The notes: generated from the sequence alone by a model not told the origin. 40,339 nucleotides of DNA from Promethearchaeia archaeon (GCA_029856125.1 JAHQWJ010000046.1:1-40339); one strand, 5' to 3'. Counted from the first letter of the stretch, positions 1-6,877 are shown. Program-made: numbers and translations.

Positions 1-1996
1 AATTTTCATAATCTTTGTTAAGTTTAGCCCGAAATTTTTTCTTAAACTTATAATTTGGATATTTTTCAAGAGGATACATTTTGGAAAGTGCATCAGGAAC
101 AAGAATTCCATCCTCAATCAACTCATGAAATTCTTCAAGTTTTTTATTTCCATTCTCGTACGCAAGTTTTGATTCTTCTTTTGATTTATCTAATGTTTTT
201 CCAAAATCTATTGCTGATTTCATCTCTGAATGTTCCCTGGTATTAAAAATCCATTCAATAACGGGAATATTAGAAACTGCTGAGTGTTGAGTGACATCTG
301 GAAGGATCAGGAATTTCGGACAATAATAATGATCATTACTACTACTAATGAGTCTTGGAACAAATATAAAATCTAGATCGGGGTGATTTTTCGATAAATA
401 ATTCACATGACCATAATGAATCTTGACTGGAATGCATAAATCGGTAGCAGATTGATTAGATCCGTTGGTAAGAATTTCTTTGTTTGTTTCTGGACTCACA
501 ATAACTTCGCAACCAAGACTTGTAAGCATTCCTTCCCATAATGGAAAATACTTGTAGAAATACAGGGAACGTGGTATACCTACCTTCAGTCTTTTCGTCT
601 TTTCAGTTTTTTTCTGAATAGAATTATAATTCGTCTTTTCGTACAAGTTTCGAAATAGGTTCTTGGGATCCGTTCGTTCTTTCACTTCATCGTATAATTT
701 CTTGTTATATATCTTCCAGAACACGTCTTCCTCGTAGAAATTGTGAGTTATCAGGGTTTTCATTCCCTTGAGCTCTTGAACCTTTTCTTCTAGCGCTTTA
801 TAGAAGTTAAATCCCTTTCTTTTTTGTTCGAACCCGTAGATAGCAAAATCTATGAATAGCTCATCCTCGACGGTAGCGAACATGTCTTGATTGAGCCACG
901 GGTAGAACTTGTACCCATCTAGTTTGTTTTTTTGCATGCGGTAAGGGACGATCCATACCGGGAAGTAATCAAATAACTCCAGGTACCAATCGAAAAATTC
1001 TTCCGCGTGAGTGATTGGTATGAAGACATCAATAATCACATCCGGTTTTCCCCCCTTCTTAGTTAAAAATGGCAATCGTTCACTGATCTTAAGAATATTT
1101 GTCGATCCAAGTATAAAGGGCCCTGTTAACCACCGGACTACTTTATTCTCAAAAATTCCTCCAGCAACATTCCTTATCGCCCAGTGACAATCTGCATCAT
1201 ACCTGAAAAAATAATCTATGGTGGAGAGGAAGTCTTGCTTTTTTTTCATCGCACTTTTGTAATAAATATCGTAGAAATATTCACTCTTGTAAGGAGCTTC
1301 CTCCTCATCAACGAAGCTGGCAACGCAGAGTACGTTCATATTCTTGGAGAAGATAAGCCCGTCCATCATTTCAATATCCTGCTTTTCGTAGTGTTGCTTG
1401 ATAGCTTCTAGGTATTTACTAAAAGTATCGTAATGGATGTAATCAATGCGGACACACTCTTTTGCTGAAACGAGCTTAAACTTCAGGAGTGTGATGATTG
1501 CAATCGTGCCGAAACTCCCGTGCAGCATCTCGAATATTTCATGGTTATCACTTTTCGTGCATAACATTATGTCACCTGTTCCCGTCACAATCTCTATTTC
1601 TTCACAGGAATCGAAAAATCCCCCATATTTGAAAGACATGGATTCAACTGAACATCCTGCTACTGCCCCGCCTATCGTGATTCCCTTGAGCTCGGAAACA
1701 CATTGCGGTACGAGCCCATGCTTTAAGGTTTCTGTTGCAAGCCTAACAAAAGTAATCCCTGCTTCTGCAATACATGTTTTTGTATCCGTGTTTATCTCAA
1801 TAATGTCTGTAAGTGACTTCACATCTATCGGTTTGTCACTATAGATCGGGTTATCTGGCTGTGGAGCCATGTGGGAAACGCTCGCCTTTTTTAGAGAGAA
1901 AAATTCCCCCGGCTTTGCGTTATCGTACGCATTTCTAACCATTTCAGAGATAGCTTCTACTTTTCTCTTATGTATTGCTAGTTTTTCTCCACTCAT
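1..1996 (-). CDS. Fusion of a VAO/PCMH-family FAD-binding oxidoreductase (DHCR24/DWF1/TmsA-like) and a C-terminal DUF2229 (COG3580) domain; partial, runs off the left edge
   Basis: Translated by hand from ATG at 1996 (MSGEKLAIHK...). It is absent from the ORF track because it has no stop in the window. FAD motif PQCVSELKGITIGGAVAGCSVESMSFKYGGFF and HGSFGT, then ...DPKNLFRNLYEK, reads in frame into RLKVGIPRSLYFYKYFPLW...DLCIPVKIHYGH...YYCPKFLILPD. Confidence 0.85.
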   Translation of the reverse strand, partial: MSGEKLAIHKRKVEAISEMVRNAYDNAKPGEFFSLKKASVSHMAPQPDNPIYSDKPIDVKSLTDIIEINTDTKTCIAEAGITFVRLATETLKHGLVPQCVSELKGITIGGAVAGCSVESMSFKYGGFFDSCEEIEIVTGTGDIMLCTKSDNHEIFEMLHGSFGTIAIITLLKFKLVSAKECVRIDYIHYDTFSKYLEAIKQHYEKQDIEMMDGLIFSKNMNVLCVASFVDEEEAPYKSEYFYDIYYKSAMKKKQDFLSTIDYFFRYDADCHWAIRNVAGGIFENKVVRWLTGPFILGSTNILKISERLPFLTKKGGKPDVIIDVFIPITHAEEFFDWYLELFDYFPVWIVPYRMQKNKLDGYKFYPWLNQDMFATVEDELFIDFAIYGFEQKRKGFNFYKALEEKVQELKGMKTLITHNFYEEDVFWKIYNKKLYDEVKERTDPKNLFRNLYEKTNYNSIQKKTEKTKRLKVGIPRSLYFYKYFPLWEGMLTSLGCEVIVSPETNKEILTNGSNQSATDLCIPVKIHYGHVNYLSKNHPDLDFIFVPRLISSSNDHYYCPKFLILPDVTQHSAVSNIPVIEWIFNTREHSEMKSAIDFGKTLDKSKEESKLAYENGNKKLEEFHELIEDGILVPDALSKMYPLEKYPNYKFKKKFRAKLNKDYEN

Positions 1997-2236
1997 GTCA
2001 AACTCAGTGTTTTTTCAAGAAAAATATAACAGCTTTTACAAACTTAGAATAAATCAAATAACACAGTTTAAAATAAAAATTTACCCATTGAAAACACATT
2101 CTCAATCGTATGTTAATCTTATTAAGTAAATACATCAAATTTAATAATGAAAAACAATAATTATCTAATTCAAACTTTAAATTTCTCAATCTCATGATCT
2201 TCTAAATAAAAAAAGCTTAAACAATATATGGGAACT

Positions 2237-3313
2237 TTATACTTCTTGTTTTGATTTAATTGTTAGGTGGTGTTTTCTTCCAAGATATAATCTTCTTTTC
2301 TTTCTCCGAATCATTTCGACAAAGGATTCGACGCGCGTCAACAGGCCAGCTTCTCCCGAATGCTCATCCATTATAATCTCTAAAAAGGGAAGGCCTACAA
2401 CTTTCATGTCTCTCATAATTAATTCTGAAATGAGACTATCTGGACCGCAAGCAAAACTTATCAAAAAGATTACACCATCGATTTCCTCTCTCCCTTCAGT
2501 AAGAAAATAACGAATACCTTGCATGATTTCTTCTTCGTGGCGCCAATAGTTTCGTAGCTTACCGCCTCTTGGATTAACTATGACGGGTTTCTTAAAAACA
2601 AATTCGGGTAAATTTTCAATCGTAATAACTTCGACGCCTTGATCTTTTAGCTTTTTCTGAAAGTCAAGATTAATGAATATGTCGAAAATGTTATAACCGT
2701 GCCCTAAAAGTAGAAACTTAATATCACCCGTACTTTTCTTCTTAGGTAATGTGAAAGGGCGATCCCTTTCAGTTAATCTTAAGGCGTGATTGACAGAAGA
2801 ACCATTTCTTAAAAATTCGCGATATTCGTCGAAATACTTTTGGGCTTCTCTGTATGCGTTTAATGCTTGATTTTGATTCTTCCCTAATTGTCTTCCGAGT
2901 TCAATGGCTGCTGTAGATATCGGAAATTCTTTAACGTTTACTTCGAAATTCAAAATTTTTGGAATATCAGGCAAGATTTTAATTACATCGGGTAACGACA
3001 AAAATTTAGGGCAGAAATAAGAGTCTTTTACTTCAGATACATACCTCGGTACAAAAACAAAGTCTAAATCGGGATGATCCGCTACCAATTTTAAAAGCTG
3101 CCCGTAGTATATCTTAACTGGAATGCACAACTCGCCAAATCCGTGAGTTACGCCTTCTTCAACTATTTTTTTATTAGTTAGGGGACTTACAACAATTTCT
3201 GCGTCGAGTTCTTCGAGAATTTTTTTCCAAAATGGGAAATACCTATAAAAATGAAGTGCTCTCGGTATCCCTACCTTGAGTTTTTTCTTTATCGATTGTT
3301 GTGGTACTTCCAT
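2237..3313 (-). CDS. DUF2229/COG3580 acyl-CoA dehydratase activase-related protein (2-hydroxyacyl-CoA dehydratase-like Fe-S subunit; PlsA/Ger family domain)
   Basis: Motifs KVGIPRAL, VSPLTN, ELCIPVK, YFCPKF, SFACGPDS and DEHSGEAGLLTRVESF, with three conserved Cys. Confidence 0.85.
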   Translation of the reverse strand: MEVPQQSIKKKLKVGIPRALHFYRYFPFWKKILEELDAEIVVSPLTNKKIVEEGVTHGFGELCIPVKIYYGQLLKLVADHPDLDFVFVPRYVSEVKDSYFCPKFLSLPDVIKILPDIPKILNFEVNVKEFPISTAAIELGRQLGKNQNQALNAYREAQKYFDEYREFLRNGSSVNHALRLTERDRPFTLPKKKSTGDIKFLLLGHGYNIFDIFINLDFQKKLKDQGVEVITIENLPEFVFKKPVIVNPRGGKLRNYWRHEEEIMQGIRYFLTEGREEIDGVIFLISFACGPDSLISELIMRDMKVVGLPFLEIIMDEHSGEAGLLTRVESFVEMIRRKKRRLYLGRKHHLTIKSKQEV

Positions 3314-3334
3314 CTTGATACATCCCCCTATAAT

Positions 3335-5011
3335 CTATGCATCTGGGCTATCATAAAGAAGTAAATCTTTAATTTGGGCCATCATGTTGGCTGTCAAACG
3401 CTTCAATTCTTCATAGTCAGGCATTGGTTTACCCCAGTGTTTTTTATGTTCCATGAATGGTGGTCCCGCCTTCATTATCTGACCTCTATAAAAGCTTAAC
3501 ATCTTAGCGTGCTTTGGGTAGGTTTTTTCTGTGCCTGTTATTCCAACCAATAGAATCGGTACTTGTTTTTCAATTGCCAATCGCATAGCTCCAGTGTGTC
3601 CTTCTAAAAGTTCACCACCACCCGCATTAGTAGTTCCTTCAGGGTACATGCATACTAAATCTCCTTTATCAAGTACATCCTTTGCGAAATTATAAGAGTC
3701 TACATCGTGTAGTCCTCGCTTTAATGGAAATGCGTGATGATTTCTAACCCAAGCGTTAACTAGCGGTGGTTTGAATAAAGATTGTTTGGCCATTTGGTAA
3801 AGAACTCGTTTTCTGTGGTAGATTAAGGATGCTGCAAAGATAAGTACGTCCCATTCTGAGTTGTGGTTAGTGCAGACAACAGCTGCGCCTTCGTCAGGGA
3901 TATACTTTTCAAAATCGATTACCTTGTAAGGCATCATTAAATTGCTCCAATTGCACACTAGCCATCCTGAGAAATTATGAACTGTTTCTTGGAATTTGGC
4001 TCGTAATCCAAATGCTTCTAAACTTTTTAATAAGGAATACCACAAATCATCGACGAATCCTAAAGCACCCTTTCCAAAATCTTTCAAGTATCTCATAGGG
4101 GATGACGATTCTTTCGGTTTTTGAGCATCTTCTGGAGAACCGATTGATAATTCTACTTTTTTTTGTTTCCTTGTATCTACAATAACGTAATCTCGTAAGT
4201 CCATTACTACTTGTCTTAATTCTGCAGATAGTCTTTTTATTTCATCGTACGATATTGTATTAATGTCGTAATCGTTATAATAAATAGGATCACCTACGCG
4301 CACTTTAACTTGCGTTGGTTTCATGACCAATTTACCTTTTGGCAAAGCATTCCTTGACCCAATTACTGCCATTGGAACAATAGGGACCTTCATTTCAATT
4401 GCAAGTCGAACTGCGCCGGTTTTAAATTCTCCAATCTCCCAACCAGTTTCTTCCCTAGATCTCGTGCCTTCGGGGAAAATTCCAACCCATTCACCTTCTT
4501 CAATTATTTCTTTGGCCATTTTCCAGGCTAGTTCAGGATTTTCTCGATCTAATTTGAATGCTCCTAAGTTGGTAAAGAGAGTTTTTACTAAGGGGGTTTT
4601 AAAATTATCCATTTTACTCATGTATCGAATTCTTCTATGACAAGCGGCTCCATAAAAAAATGGGTCTAAGTGGCTTTCATGTGAGCCCACGAGGATACCT
4701 CCACCATATTCTGGAAACATATTCCCTTGTGGGTATTCTGCTTTAAAATTCCATAGTAAACGAGCAAAAAATTTAATATAAACATATGCTGCCCACCACT
4801 GAAGCTTCCCTTCAACATCCTCAAGGCTCAACCGCTCAATAGCTTGGCGCCAGAGGTCGTTTAATGGATCAATCGGATTGTATTTTAAAAACTTGTAAGT
4901 CGCATTTTGATGACGTTTTCCAAAATCTAACTCTTCTTGTTCCTTTTCTTCAGTAGTTTTCACAATCCTACCTTCTTCTGAAGTTTTATAATCTTGTTCT
5001 TTAAGTTGCAT
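3335..5011 (-). CDS. Tandem two-domain lysophospholipid/glycerol-phosphate acyltransferase (PlsC-like x2)
   Basis: Domain 1 has SHESHLD...FPEGTRS...VPIVP. Domain 2 has NHNSEWD...YPEGTTN...VPILL. Start moved to ATG 5011 (MQLKEQ) to avoid overlap with the upstream HAD gene. Confidence 0.9.
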   Translation of the reverse strand: MQLKEQDYKTSEEGRIVKTTEEKEQEELDFGKRHQNATYKFLKYNPIDPLNDLWRQAIERLSLEDVEGKLQWWAAYVYIKFFARLLWNFKAEYPQGNMFPEYGGGILVGSHESHLDPFFYGAACHRRIRYMSKMDNFKTPLVKTLFTNLGAFKLDRENPELAWKMAKEIIEEGEWVGIFPEGTRSREETGWEIGEFKTGAVRLAIEMKVPIVPMAVIGSRNALPKGKLVMKPTQVKVRVGDPIYYNDYDINTISYDEIKRLSAELRQVVMDLRDYVIVDTRKQKKVELSIGSPEDAQKPKESSSPMRYLKDFGKGALGFVDDLWYSLLKSLEAFGLRAKFQETVHNFSGWLVCNWSNLMMPYKVIDFEKYIPDEGAAVVCTNHNSEWDVLIFAASLIYHRKRVLYQMAKQSLFKPPLVNAWVRNHHAFPLKRGLHDVDSYNFAKDVLDKGDLVCMYPEGTTNAGGGELLEGHTGAMRLAIEKQVPILLVGITGTEKTYPKHAKMLSFYRGQIMKAGPPFMEHKKHWGKPMPDYEELKRLTANMMAQIKDLLLYDSPDA

Positions 5012-5024
5012 AAATAGAATCCTC

Positions 5025-5810
5025 TTAGGATTTGATTTTAATACTATTTTGTGAATTTGAATTTGATAAATTTTTATTTTCAATTAGCCTTTTTAAATCA
5101 TCCAACGAATCAATTAACAAATGCGGTTGAAATTCCGCTAACATCTCTTTCTTGCTTACTCCAGTTGCTACTCCTATAGTCCATACTCCTGCTTCCTTTC
5201 CTGCTTGAATATCTGATGGCATATCACCAATCATGATAAACTCTTTTAAGTTACAGGATTTATAGCTCTCAAAAACAGGATTTAATGAGTTAGGATCTGG
5301 TTTAAGATCCGGTAAAAGATCTGCTCCAAACACTCCTTTAAACATGCTTTTCACATTGTTACTTTCAAGGTGTGGAATAATATTTTTAGTTTGGTTATGA
5401 GAAACAATAAAGAAATCGTAAGATTTTTTAAACTTTTTAATAAAATCATCTGCTTCTGGATAAAATGGAGCTTCTTTAGCGTATGTTAAATATGTTGTGA
5501 ATATTTTCGTAGCAATTCGTAGTTTTTTTAAGAATGTTATGGAGTGAAGTGATGTTATGTATTTAAATAATTCAAACGCTTCTAGTATGATTTTAGGGAG
5601 TGGAGTTCCTTGAATTATCTCCATCAATGCACCAATCTCTTGCATTGTCGTCTCGATATCATAGTTAATCTGTTTTTCATTGAAAACTTCTTCTATTGAA
5701 TTTCTCAATGATTCTCTTATATCGAGGAGAGTCCCGTCAAAATCGAATATAATTCCTCGAATTGTCCCGTTTTGAATCCGTTTAACTAATTCGTTGTCAG
5801 AGCTCATCAT
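5025..5810 (-). CDS. HAD-superfamily phosphatase (phosphoglycolate-phosphatase-like, cap C1)
   Basis: Motif I FDFDGTL, motif II SH, KPDP and motif IV IGDMPSD. Confidence 0.9.
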   Translation of the reverse strand: MMSSDNELVKRIQNGTIRGIIFDFDGTLLDIRESLRNSIEEVFNEKQINYDIETTMQEIGALMEIIQGTPLPKIILEAFELFKYITSLHSITFLKKLRIATKIFTTYLTYAKEAPFYPEADDFIKKFKKSYDFFIVSHNQTKNIIPHLESNNVKSMFKGVFGADLLPDLKPDPNSLNPVFESYKSCNLKEFIMIGDMPSDIQAGKEAGVWTIGVATGVSKKEMLAEFQPHLLIDSLDDLKRLIENKNLSNSNSQNSIKIKS

Positions 5811-5909
5811 TACTTATTAAAAAACAGCTAAATTTTTAATAACATTACATTTAATATTGATGTTTTATCTTTTACTTAAATCATCTTCTAATAAAAAGAT
5901 ATTGGTTAT

Positions 5910-5933
5910 AATCATACACTATAGAGTATGATT
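5910..5933. promoter_or_regulatory. 24-bp near-perfect palindrome, candidate repressor operator upstream of the HAD-PlsC operon
   Basis: AATCATAC-A-CTATAG-A-GTATGATT (one mismatched pair), 100 bp upstream of the 5810 start. Confidence 0.5.
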
Positions 5934-6147
5934 TGTTTTCGTGTAACTTAACGTCAGAAAGGAGTTTTCACAAGTGATAGGAACAAGCACCATTAAAAAT
6001 TGGATTAGTAATTTCTTGATCATATCAAATATAATTCTAAAGACCAAGATACTGGGAACCAGACCCCATTAGCTGCAATATTGCCCTTTTAATAAGTAAT
6101 TTTTAAATAACATGGGTGAAATAAATATATAAGTAGAGGTTTTTAGT

Positions 6148-6294
6148 ATGGAAATACAGAAAGAATTTCAAAAGGATAAGTATAGACACGGTGAATTTCT
6201 GGAAATGACTCCCATAAAAGAGGAAAAACTTTTAAAGCTTTTTCTAAAAAGAAATCATTACCCAATCAGGATTGAATACGAAGCACCTCAGTAA
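6148..6294 (+). CDS. Putative small protein, 48 aa (MEIQKEFQKDKYRHGEF...IEYEAPQ)
   Basis: ATG preceded by GAGGT at 7-nt spacing and a TATA-like ATAAATATATAA; below the ORF track cutoff. Confidence 0.4.
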   Translation: MEIQKEFQKDKYRHGEFLEMTPIKEEKLLKLFLKRNHYPIRIEYEAPQ

Positions 6295-6323
6295 ATATTA
6301 AAACTTAGATAACCTTATTCACT

Positions 6324-6349
6324 CACGAATTTGTCCCACGAATTTGTCC
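6324..6349. repeat. 13-bp perfect tandem duplication (CACGAATTTGTCC x2)
   Basis: Read directly from the sequence. Confidence 0.8.
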
Positions 6350-6472
6350 AAACTTATTTATTTTATCGTTAGAATTTCCTAACGCCTTGTTTTTGTTGTT
6401 GAAATACTTAAATAATATGCGGTAGATGTAACTACAAGATGGATATTTAACTCTAAGAAGGTTTTGACAAAT

Positions 6473-6877
6473 ATGTCTGAAAAAATATCTAATGACGTGA
6501 AGGAAGGAACATTCGCCGAGGCGATCCTAGAGACCTACGGTCCACTCAATAACAACGAGAAGTTTAAAGAGAAATATGCTGATAAAAGTTTTAAAATTCT
6601 TTTAAATCCAAAAGACGGAAAATTTGCTGCTTTAATTACCGTAAATAATGGAACAGTTTCAATTAAAGGATTAGATAACCAAGATAAAAAAAACCTCGAT
6701 CAGAAAGAAATCGGCTGGGACGGCTACATGCAAACTACTTTAGCTTTATTTGATGAGATCGGTAAAGGAAACCTGTCTCAAAGCGATATCGTAAAGAAAG
6801 TGGTGGCTCGTAAAATTAAAATGAAAAATGTGAAATTTGTGGCAAAACTCTCCGAAATGGGAGCACTCTTAAATTAA
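6473..6877 (+). CDS. SCP2-like sterol/lipid-binding domain protein
   Basis: About 134 aa with the pattern LITVNNGTVSI...DGYMQTT...IGKGNLS...KIKMK, typical of the SCP2 fold. ATG 6473 is preceded by GAAGGT. Confidence 0.6.
   Translation: MSEKISNDVKEGTFAEAILETYGPLNNNEKFKEKYADKSFKILLNPKDGKFAALITVNNGTVSIKGLDNQDKKNLDQKEIGWDGYMQTTLALFDEIGKGNLSQSDIVKKVVARKIKMKNVKFVAKLSEMGALLN

What the first reader, a model, noticed from the sequence alone, without database searches (positions are those of the whole stretch)
1..6877. Candidate bacterial-type ester-to-ether (plasmalogen/alkyl-ether) lipid pathway clustered in an Asgard archaeon
Seen: four co-oriented genes encoding a HAD phosphatase, a double PlsC acyltransferase, a DUF2229 protein and an FAD-reductase::DUF2229 fusion. 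The first three are separated by only 13 and 21 bp. A divergent SCP2-like lipid carrier lies upstream. Known: DUF2229 and 2-hydroxyacyl-CoA-dehydratase-like Fe-S domains are components of the anaerobic plasmalogen synthase PlsA/PlsR of Clostridium and of the glycerol ester reductase Ger, which convert acyl esters to ethers. PlsC homologs are reported in Lokiarchaeota, but their product is unresolved. Inference: the operon acylates a glycerol(-phosphate) backbone with fatty acids, reduces the ester to a vinyl ether, and possibly saturates it to an alkyl ether. That would give non-isoprenoid or hybrid ether lipids in a close relative of eukaryotes and bears on the lipid divide.
Basis: partly seen in the sequence, partly recalled or inferred. 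Interest (0 to 1): 0.9.

Follow-up and report, generated by a model that had tools for sequence, protein, structure and literature searches.

The report
Asgard acyltransferase operon with PlsA-like reductases
A Lokiarchaeial genome places its only fatty-acyl glycerolipid acyltransferase (PlsC) genes in one operon with a stripped-down relative of the bacterial enzymes that turn lipid esters into ethers; the linkage is conserved across the class, but the product is still unknown.

Summary
They are a HAD phosphatase, a two-domain PlsC, a 358-aa DUF2229 protein ("alpha") and an FAD::DUF2229 fusion cut by the contig start. A small divergent protein upstream has an SCP2-type fold.

They are missing from this assembly.

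Alpha, beta and the activase are collinear with Act-Red1-Red2 of PlsA/PlsR/Ger-type proteins. They have the benzoyl-CoA reductase/2-hydroxyacyl-CoA dehydratase (BCR/HAD) fold and three invariant cysteines. At 23-29% identity they form a separate small subfamily that no one has characterised.

PlsC lies within 3.5 kb of alpha in 42 of 46 Lokiarchaeial genomes. It is absent from all 39 loci not labelled Asgard and from four loci of another Asgard lineage.

The FAD fusion is not part of that operon. It heads a separate, mobile three-gene module, and its flavin domain is DHCR24-like. In congeners a PlsA/PlsR-like gene pair also sits in this locus.

Ester-to-ether chemistry is the best single reading, at about 0.4, and no product evidence exists. 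Ger homologues and PlsC in Asgard are already published; I found no report of this cluster. I class it as a new variant of a known kind, with moderately high interest.

The parts
5025..5810 (-). HAD-IA type phosphatase, first gene of the operon
   Evidence: PF13419 E 4.5e-25 and PF00702 E 2.2e-16. All NCBIfam matches fall below the equivalog cut-offs; the best is phosphoglycolate phosphatase-like. DFDGT motif at residue 23. It sits directly upstream of PlsC in nearly all Asgard loci examined.
3335..5011 (-). Two-domain PlsC-family acyltransferase (558 aa from the ATG at 5011), with no predicted transmembrane helix
   Evidence: PF01553 E 4.2e-52 in two stretches and TIGR00530 E 4e-47. HX4D and EGT motifs are present in both halves, and no hydrophobic 19-mer was found. 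These are the only PF01553 matches in the whole assembly.
2237..3313 (-). Alpha: 358-aa DUF2229 protein, the Red1-like subunit of a small three-component BCR/HAD-type radical enzyme
   Evidence: PF09989 E 2.7e-43 over the full profile. It has exactly three cysteines (C63, C101, C289), all invariant across 36 homologues. The AlphaFold model (pLDDT 93) matches 2-hydroxyisocaproyl-CoA dehydratase, double-cubane cluster protein (DCCP) and BzdNO/MbdON chains. It aligns end to end with the Red1 region of ~1400-aa proteins with two activase domains plus DUF2229 (BBD-type).
1997..2236 (-). Spacer holding a relic of the lost beta gene
   Evidence: By blastn, part of the spacer matches the region upstream of beta in congener L029 (83% over 99 nt, E 5e-22). 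Another part matches codons ~127-144 of the same beta gene (88% over 52 nt, E 9e-13); L071 and L045 give the same pattern. tblastn found the matching peptide at 2010-2093.
2..1996 (-). FAD::alpha' fusion (first 665 of ~806-837 aa): a DHCR24-like flavoprotein domain joined to a paralogous DUF2229 subunit, cut by the contig end
   Evidence: PF01565 E 5e-14 and PF09989 E 1.9e-37. Full-length orthologues at 90-94% identity are followed by a 343-aa activase and a 444-aa beta'. The flavin domain scores 0.97 against Atlas 'Delta(24)-sterol reductase' clusters. Stand-alone homologues reach 60-63% identity in other Asgard. The alpha' part nests inside the Lokiarchaeial alpha clade.
6464..6877 (+). Divergently transcribed 137-aa protein with an SCP2-type fold
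   Evidence: No Pfam hit. The Atlas model (pTM 0.72) matches SCP2 clusters at TM 0.62-0.68. An orthologue occupies the same position in G020 (64% identity) and in L071 and L067.

Best explanation
HAD-PlsC(2 domains)-alpha is an operon for making and then modifying fatty-acyl glycerolipid esters. The two PlsC domains put acyl groups onto a glycerol-phosphate-type backbone. The HAD enzyme removes a phosphate.

Alpha pairs with a beta subunit and a homodimeric ASKHA activase. Both are encoded just downstream in relatives and are unassembled or lost here. Together they would form a small, fully split counterpart of PlsA/PlsR/Ger. That enzyme would use ATP-driven low-potential electron injection into a [4Fe-4S] centre to reduce the ester carbonyl made by PlsC and eliminate water, giving an alk-1-enyl (vinyl) ether.

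The neighbouring FAD::alpha'-activase-beta' unit is a second, mobile paralogous system. Its appended DHCR24-like flavin domain would reduce the resulting C=C to give a saturated alkyl ether.

Shown here: domain families, fold, cysteine conservation, collinearity with Act-Red1-Red2, and the conserved PlsC linkage.

Inferred: the substrate, the ether product, the role of the flavin domain and the subunit pairing.
For: 1. Alpha matches the full PF09989 profile, the 'D' domain of Ger (PMC13159169). It matches only the C-terminal tail of PF06050. The genome's canonical HgdC-HgdA-HgdB-type operons lie on other contigs.

2. In relatives the module is complete: alpha, beta (370-444 aa) and a single-domain PF01869 activase. 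Alpha aligns end to end with Red1 of BBD-type proteins, and beta with Red2 (E down to 1e-28 and 1e-14). Identity to ~1400-aa BBD proteins is 27-29%.

3. The fold is that of the BCR/HAD family, and three cysteines are invariant.

4. PlsC lies within 3.5 kb of alpha in 42 of 46 Lokiarchaeial genomes from 7 families. It is also present in 40 of 41 Asgard-labelled loci. Several of these loci read HAD-PlsC2-alpha-beta-activase-PlsC3, so the module is embedded between acyltransferase genes.

5. All PlsC-linked alphas form one clade (SH-aLRT 97).

6. A PlsA/PlsR-like pair (two activase domains plus DUF2229, ~980 aa, followed by a ~469-aa Red2-like protein) occupies the same locus in at least 6 congeners.

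7. These are the only PlsC domains in the genome.

8. Small-type systems have lipid-related neighbours in other lineages as well. A few actinomycete loci have a CMAS methyltransferase and an SCP2 protein, and one other Asgard locus has DegV.

9. The flavin domain belongs to a group whose named members reduce C=C bonds in lipids. BfaA is a precedent (PMC5660069).
Against: - No product data exist.
- The small alpha/beta family has never been characterised and is only 23-29% identical to BBD-type proteins. I could not obtain the characterised PlsA/PlsR/Ger sequences, so orthology was not tested.
- In 39 loci not labelled Asgard and in 4 loci of another Asgard lineage, the same module has no PlsC or HAD nearby. 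The lipid link therefore rests mainly on one archaeal clade.
- Two 100%-complete congeners keep HAD-PlsC2-PlsC3 with no alpha at all, so PlsC does not depend on it.
- In this assembly beta and a dedicated activase are absent, and the adjacent beta gene is reduced to a relic. Whether alpha is functional here is uncertain.
- The only published lipid analysis of a cultured relative reported archaeal lipids only. The citing paper notes that the method could have missed others (PMC13400652).
- The FAD fusion and the LarA-like gene in Helarchaeota-type clusters fit 2-hydroxyacyl dehydration plus enoyl reduction equally well.
Confidence: 0.4

Rival explanations
1. The small alpha-beta-activase enzyme modifies the acyl chain rather than the ester linkage. 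For example, it could dehydrate a 2-hydroxyacyl thioester or ester to a 2-enoyl form, as classic HAD-family enzymes do. The fused flavin domain would then reduce the enoyl C=C. The cluster would supply or tailor unusual acyl groups for PlsC, and the product would remain an ester lipid.
For: - The fold and the nearest solved structures are 2-hydroxyacyl-CoA dehydratases and benzoyl-CoA reductases.
- The subfamily is distant from BBD-type proteins.
- Helarchaeota-type clusters carry a LarA-like 2-hydroxyacid racemase homologue between PlsC and HAD.
- Actinomycete clusters pair the module with a CMAS acyl-chain methyltransferase.
- DHCR24/BfaA-type flavoproteins reduce C=C bonds within lipid chains.
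Against: - Alpha matches PF09989 over its full length and PF06050 only at the tail. The only DUF2229 proteins I know to be characterised are ester-to-ether enzymes.
- The genome already has two canonical PF06050 dehydratase operons.
- A PlsA/PlsR-like pair shares the same locus in congeners.
Confidence: 0.3
2. The cluster processes lipids taken from the environment or from syntrophic partners. This could be re-acylation of lysolipids, or remodelling or breakdown of bacterial ester, plasmalogen or ether lipids. It would not build a distinct membrane lipid of the archaeon's own.
For: - PlsC2 has no membrane anchor.
- An MFS transporter and an SCP2-fold carrier are conserved neighbours within the genus.
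- PlsC2 gives a partial match to the acyl-ACP:phospholipid acyltransferase (Aas) model, E 4.8e-27, far below its cut-off.
- The alpha module is accessory within the genus.
- Published culture data show only archaeal lipids.
Against: - The MFS protein shows no LplT-type match.
- I know of no precedent for BCR/HAD enzymes running ether cleavage.
- Two or three acyltransferase domains plus a phosphatase look biosynthetic.
Confidence: 0.15
3. The adjacency has no functional meaning. Alpha-beta-activase is a mobile cassette that happens to insert next to PlsC in one lineage.
For: - The region downstream of alpha is a rearrangement hot spot, with several alternative inserts and recurrent contig breaks.
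- The FAD module sits elsewhere in sister genera.
- In G023 the alpha-beta-activase module lies 8 kb from PlsC.
Against: - Alpha itself keeps its place immediately after PlsC, with a 21-bp gap here. This holds across 7 families and in both the double- and triple-PlsC cluster types.
- The PlsC-linked alphas are monophyletic.
Confidence: 0.07

Closest known systems
PlsA/PlsR anaerobic plasmalogen synthase (Clostridium perfringens CPE1194/1195; single-gene form in Enterococcus faecalis)
   Same: - DUF2229 'reduction' domain.
- The same order of parts: activase, Red1, Red2.
- BCR/HAD-family fold with cysteine-ligated Fe-S sites.
- Gene products split over more than one gene, as in C. perfringens.
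- A pair with the PlsA/PlsR architecture (two activase domains plus DUF2229, ~980 aa, then ~469 aa) lies in the same locus in congeners.
   Different: - Fully split into three small genes, with a single activase domain instead of two fused ones.
- Only 23-29% identical to BBD-type homologues, and a separate clade.
- Linked to PlsC and HAD genes.
- No biochemical data.
- Not compared directly with the characterised sequences, which I could not obtain.
Ger, glycerol ester reductase (Thermotoga maritima Tmari_0479; Desulfatibacillum alkenivorans)
   Same: Same domain families: PF01869, PF09989 and PF06050 pieces. Ger homologues have already been reported in Lokiarchaeota and Heimdallarchaeota (PMC13159169). 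BBD proteins of 1377-1482 aa do occur in relatives of this genome.
   Different: Ger is a single ~1400-aa protein with the domain order BBD-HDDH. This genome has no such protein. The published screen required at least 30% coverage of Ger, so by my inference a 358-aa protein would not have been picked up. If saturation happens here, it would be done by a separate fused flavin domain.
2-Hydroxyacyl-CoA dehydratases and class I benzoyl-CoA reductases (HgdABC, HadBC-HadI, BzdNOPQ)
   Same: Nearest solved folds. Same logic of an ATP-dependent activase plus a heterodimeric Fe-S catalytic core.
   Different: Alpha and beta do not match PF06050 over their full length. The genome's true members of that family are on contigs C135 and C148. 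No CoA-transferase or fermentation genes lie nearby.
DHCR24 / BfaA (TmsA)-type FAD-dependent lipid C=C reductases
   Same: The N-terminal 460 aa carry FAD_binding_4. They score 0.97 against Atlas clusters named Delta(24)-sterol reductase. They are 57% identical to a eukaryotic protein named 24-dehydrocholesterol reductase.
   Different: The domain is fused to a DUF2229 subunit, and this fusion was seen only in family f1. The names are automatic or database labels, and the substrate is unknown. Stand-alone homologues sit next to an unrelated MFS gene.
Eukaryotic/myxobacterial GNPAT + AGPS ether-lipid route
   Same: It also pairs a PF01553 acyltransferase with a FAD_binding_4 enzyme.
   Different: The flavin domain is not AGPS-like. 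AGPS scores E 5.5e-5 against E 5e-19 for cytokinin oxidases, and no FAD-oxidase_C domain was found. I rejected this route.

Membership tests
PlsA/PlsR/Ger ester-to-ether reductases | DUF2229 (PF09989) reduction domain | tested here: met
   Alpha: E 2.7e-43 over profile positions 1-217 of 218. Fusion: E 1.9e-37 (truncated here) and E 3.9e-44 in the full-length orthologue.
PlsA/PlsR/Ger ester-to-ether reductases | Two N-terminal BcrAD_BadFG activase domains fused to the reduction domain (the BBD core conserved in all alkyl-ether producers, per PMC13159169) | tested here: not met
   Neither window protein contains PF01869. The genome's only two PF01869 genes are single-domain and lie in Hgd-type operons. 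Relatives have a separate single-domain 334-375-aa activase gene instead.
PlsA/PlsR/Ger ester-to-ether reductases | Second reductase/dehydratase unit (PlsR/Red2) | tested here: inconclusive
   Beta is present next to alpha in relatives and aligns to Red2 of BBD proteins. In this assembly there is no beta by tblastn, only a relic in the spacer.
PlsA/PlsR/Ger ester-to-ether reductases | Clusters phylogenetically with experimentally characterised PlsA or Ger | tested here: inconclusive
   I could not fetch the characterised sequences. Against BBD-type homologues, alpha is 23-29% identical and forms a separate clade with long branches.
PlsA/PlsR/Ger ester-to-ether reductases | Produces alk-1-enyl or alkyl glycerol ethers from ester lipids | not testable with these tools
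   This needs anaerobic expression and lipid analysis.
BCR/HAD radical enzyme superfamily | HgdA/B-type fold with conserved cluster-binding cysteines | tested here: met
   The model has pLDDT 93. Foldseek E-values are 3.5e-9 to 1e-6 against 3o3m/3o3n/3o3o, 7yyl/6eno, 8s02 and 9gai. C63, C101 and C289 are invariant in 36 sequences.
2-Hydroxyacyl-CoA dehydratase D-component (PF06050) | Full-length PF06050 match | tested here: not met
   Only profile positions 283-342 match, at 27.9 bits, below the 28.4-bit cut-off. The genome's real members match over the full profile at E 1e-37 to 4e-100.
PlsC / AGPAT acyltransferases (PF01553) | HX4D catalytic motif and EGT(R) motif | tested here: met
   Both domains: HESHLD and FPEGTRS; HNSEWD and YPEGTTN. 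TIGR00530 scores 159 bits, above its 103-bit cut-off.
DHCR24/BfaA-like flavoprotein reductases | FAD_binding_4 domain plus specific similarity to named C=C reductases | tested here: inconclusive
   PF01565 is met. The Atlas feature score is 0.97 to 'Delta(24)-sterol reductase' clusters. Identity is 57% to a protein labelled DHCR24. I made no comparison with a characterised enzyme. The best PDB sequence hits are cytokinin oxidases.
SCP2 lipid-transfer proteins (PF02036) | Pfam SCP2 profile match / SCP2 fold | tested here: inconclusive
   No Pfam hit at E <= 0.01. The Atlas model gives TM 0.62-0.68 to several SCP2 clusters. My own single-sequence model was too poor to use (pLDDT 55).

The most novel reading that the evidence does not exclude
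Lokiarchaeia, including the genus of the cultured Promethearchaeum, would use a dedicated HAD-PlsC-alpha-beta-activase operon to make fatty-acid-derived alkenyl or alkyl ether glycerolipids. These would exist alongside their isoprenoid lipids. The closest archaeal relatives of eukaryotes would then have an ester-then-ether route to non-isoprenoid lipids. A previously uncharacterised three-gene DUF2229 family, widespread in anaerobic bacteria, would be a second type of ester-to-ether reductase.
Probability: 0.3. Interest if true: 0.9.

Novelty: new variant of a known kind. Interest (0 to 1): 0.62.

Why it matters
What PlsC makes in Asgard archaea is an open point in the 'lipid divide' and eukaryogenesis debate. 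This work shows that across Lokiarchaeia the PlsC genes sit in a conserved operon with a phosphatase and a split relative of the only enzymes known to convert lipid esters to ethers. In this genome they are the only PlsC genes. That turns a vague presence/absence observation into a defined set of five to six genes that can be expressed and tested. It also points to cultured relatives in which to look for the product: a Promethearchaeum-titled MAG carries PlsC-alpha-beta-activase (L097). In addition, it flags a large uncharacterised bacterial three-gene family as a candidate lipid-modifying system.

Tried and rejected
- **AGPS/GNPAT-type ether synthesis:** rejected. The flavin domain is not AGPS-like.
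- **LplT/Aas-type lysolipid salvage from the neighbouring MFS gene:** the MFS protein has no LplT-type match. The MFS gene next to stand-alone FAD homologues is unrelated.
- **Contexts of four stand-alone FAD homologues:** none showed a link to DUF2229 or PlsC.
- **A broad CMAS link to the bacterial modules:** this came from single-linkage clustering. True CMAS/SCP2/Nfn-like neighbours occur only in 2-3 related actinomycete loci.
- **PlsC-alpha fusion proteins:** none found.
- **The search for related loci with alignments A1 and A2:** failed for lack of a conserved stretch. Alignment A3 worked.
- **Papers and supplements:** supplementary tables of the Ger paper and the Jackson 2021 paper are not held. 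I therefore had no characterised PlsA/PlsR/Ger sequences and no phylogeny anchored on them.
- **Single-sequence AlphaFold model of the 137-aa protein:** too poor to search with.
- **GpsA search in the own genome:** only weak partial hits, not followed up.

Full report
**Observation.** The window is the first 40,339 bases of contig C47 of a 3.69-Mb, 153-contig assembly. Four co-oriented genes lie on the minus strand.
- A HAD-IA phosphatase at 5025-5810.
- A PlsC-family acyltransferase at 3335-5011. It has two PF01553 domains, each with HX4D and EGT motifs, and no hydrophobic anchor.
- A 358-aa DUF2229 protein at 2237-3313, called alpha here.
- A FAD_binding_4::DUF2229 fusion at 2-1996, which runs off the contig start.

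The gaps of 13 and 21 bp are as reported, and the fusion lies 240 bp further on. The divergent 137-aa gene at 6464-6877 has no Pfam hit, but its Atlas model matches SCP2 clusters at TM 0.62-0.68. Near-identical proteins and loci carry Promethearchaeota titles.

**What lies left of the window.** This assembly holds no further DUF2229 gene. Its only two PF01869 activases sit in canonical activase-HgdA-HgdB-type operons on contigs C135 and C148. tblastn finds neither the fusion's C-terminus nor any dedicated partner.

Congeners with unbroken contigs show what is missing. The fusion is 806-837 aa long there. It is followed directly by a 343-aa single-domain activase and a 444-aa HgdB-like/DUF2229-like protein, called beta' here.

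In other families of the class the order is PlsC, alpha, beta (370-435 aa), activase (334-375 aa), with no fusion. Helarchaeota-type clusters read triple-PlsC, LarA-like, HAD, alpha, beta, activase.

**Relation to PlsA/PlsR/Ger.** Ger is described as two PF01869 domains, one PF09989 domain and further small D/H pieces (PMC13159169). PlsA/PlsR is described as Act1-Act2-Red1 plus Red2 (PMC12838417).
- Alpha aligns end to end with the Red1 region of 1377-1482-aa BBD-type proteins found in relatives. Beta aligns with their Red2 region.
- Identity is only 23-29%.
- In a tree rooted on BBD Red1, the small alphas form their own large group.
- Alpha's model (pLDDT 93) matches 2-hydroxyisocaproyl-CoA dehydratase, the double-cubane protein and benzoyl-CoA reductase subunits.
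- Its only three cysteines are invariant in 36 homologues.

The system is therefore a fully split, small-type relative of PlsA/PlsR/Ger. It is not a member of the fused BBD architecture, and it is not a PF06050 fermentation dehydratase.

**Linkage to PlsC.**
- Among 46 Lokiarchaeial genomes with an alpha, drawn from seven families, 42 have a PF01553 match within 3.5 kb on the same contig.
- In a second set of 80 loci that partly overlaps the first, 40 of 41 Asgard-labelled loci have PlsC upstream of alpha. The exception is cut 1.4 kb upstream.
- Several loci read HAD-PlsC2-alpha-beta-activase-PlsC3.
- None of the 39 loci not labelled Asgard has a detectable PlsC or HAD within 7 kb. These come from Clostridia, Syntrophomonadaceae, Actinomycetota, Melainabacteria, Nitrospirota and one Bathyarchaeota MAG.
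- Four loci from another Asgard lineage (f10/f32) also lack PlsC and HAD.
- All PlsC-linked alphas fall in one clade (SH-aLRT 97).
- The two domains in the window are the only PF01553 matches in this genome. PlsY is present and PlsX was not found.

Two caveats apply. The Asgard genomes are kin, so these counts overstate independence. Two 100%-complete congeners have HAD-PlsC2-(deaminase-like gene)-PlsC3 with no alpha anywhere in the genome.

**The fusion is a separate module.** In sister genera the FAD::alpha'-activase-beta' trio stands alone at another genomic site. Alpha' nests inside the Lokiarchaeial alpha clade as sister to family f2 alphas. Beta' is likewise closest to f2 betas.

The 240-bp spacer between alpha and the fusion in this window is a relic. 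One part matches the region upstream of beta, and another matches codons ~127-144 of beta in congeners (E 5e-22 and 9e-13).

The stretch downstream of alpha is a hot spot with three alternative contents.
- Beta-activase-PlsC3.
- A PlsA/PlsR-like pair: two activase domains plus DUF2229 (~980 aa), then a ~469-aa Red2-like protein.
- The FAD module.

Many assemblies break here. That probably explains the contig end in this genome.

**The flavin domain.**
- It scores 0.97 against Atlas clusters named Delta(24)-sterol reductase.
- Stand-alone ~450-aa homologues reach 60-63% identity in other Asgard and 45-50% in anaerobic bacteria. One protein labelled DHCR24 in Anaeramoeba is 57% identical.
- It is not AGPS-like.
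- The contexts of the stand-alone homologues were uninformative.
- BfaA is a precedent for an FAD oxidoreductase that reduces a C=C in a fatty acyl chain (PMC5660069). I did not test homology to BfaA.

**Mechanism and rivals.**
- The best-supported reading, at about 0.4: PlsC makes the ester, and alpha-beta with the activase reduces and dehydrates it to a vinyl ether, as proposed for PlsA/PlsR (PMC8788747). The fused flavin domain of the second module then saturates the double bond.
- The main rival, at about 0.3: the enzyme does HAD-type chemistry on the acyl chain, namely 2-hydroxyacyl dehydration followed by enoyl reduction. This fits the solved-structure neighbours, the LarA-like gene and the actinomycete CMAS context equally well.
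- Lipid salvage or remodelling: about 0.15.
- Meaningless adjacency: about 0.07.

Neighbours in other lineages suggest the small family works on fatty-acyl lipids in general. These are CMAS, SCP2 and an Nfn-like pair in actinomycete loci, and DegV in one f10 Asgard locus. They are few and closely related, so this is weak support.

**Novelty.** PlsC and PlsY in Loki- and Thorarchaeota are published (PMC6737245). So are Ger homologues in Lokiarchaeota and Heimdallarchaeota (PMC13159169). Full-text searches for DUF2229, COG3580, 'plasmalogen' plus 'Asgard', and 'glycerol ester reductase' plus 'Asgard' found no description of this PlsC-linked split system or of the FAD fusion.

The published Ger screen required at least 30% query coverage. 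By my inference it would have missed a 358-aa protein.

I rate this a new variant of a known kind, with interest 0.62. The hypothesis is not new in spirit and no product is shown. The conserved operon makes it directly testable.

Noticed in passing
window 1-2236, and contig ends in G007, G013, G017, G018, G021, G024, G029: Assemblies of many congeners break inside or just before the FAD fusion gene. The stretch downstream of alpha carries at least three alternative gene sets, so it looks like a strain-variable insertion hot spot.
   Followed up: partly
L043:8066-8680 and L044:7311-7919: In congeners that lack alpha-beta-activase, a 202-204-aa gene occupies the slot between PlsC2 and PlsC3. It matches the BURPS668_1122 toxin-deaminase family (PF14424, E 4e-8).
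   Followed up: no
L032:13506-15125 (G060): A 539-aa radical SAM protein with an HMPTM-type zinc ribbon follows the activase in a Helarchaeota-type cluster. I did not test whether it relates to lipid tail-coupling enzymes (Tes/Mss).
   Followed up: no
L032:7111-8487, also L054: A LarA-like (nickel-pincer 2-hydroxyacid racemase family) gene sits between the triple PlsC and HAD genes in Helarchaeota-type clusters.
   Followed up: no
P0306: A protein labelled 24-dehydrocholesterol reductase from the anaerobic protist Anaeramoeba flamelloides is 57% identical to the Asgard flavin domain. This is closer than most bacterial homologues. It could reflect gene transfer or contamination.
   Followed up: no
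L096:6974-14450 and L116 (Actinomycetes MAGs): A bacterial cluster reads alpha-beta-activase, an NfnA-like and NfnB-like pair, a CMAS-family methyltransferase, then an SCP2 protein. It may be a self-contained lipid-modifying operon with its own electron supply.
   Followed up: partly
G000 contigs C135:41000-44400 and C148:15400-18600 (L005, L006): There are two canonical three-gene 2-hydroxyacyl-CoA dehydratase-type operons (activase plus two full-length PF06050 subunits), as expected for amino-acid fermentation.
   Followed up: partly
G091:C6:485-1555: A genome from a different Asgard family (f21, 76% complete) carries an alpha 94% identical to this one, while 4 of 5 genomes of that family have none. 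This is probably a mis-binned contig.
   Followed up: no
L027:15533-18658 (G020): A 1041-aa protein with LAGLIDADG endonuclease domains (possibly containing an intein) lies just beyond the beta' gene in one congener.
   Followed up: no
G000:C36:38425-38919: The PlsY-family match lies in a 405-aa open frame, about twice the usual PlsY length, and no PlsX was found in the genome.
   Followed up: no
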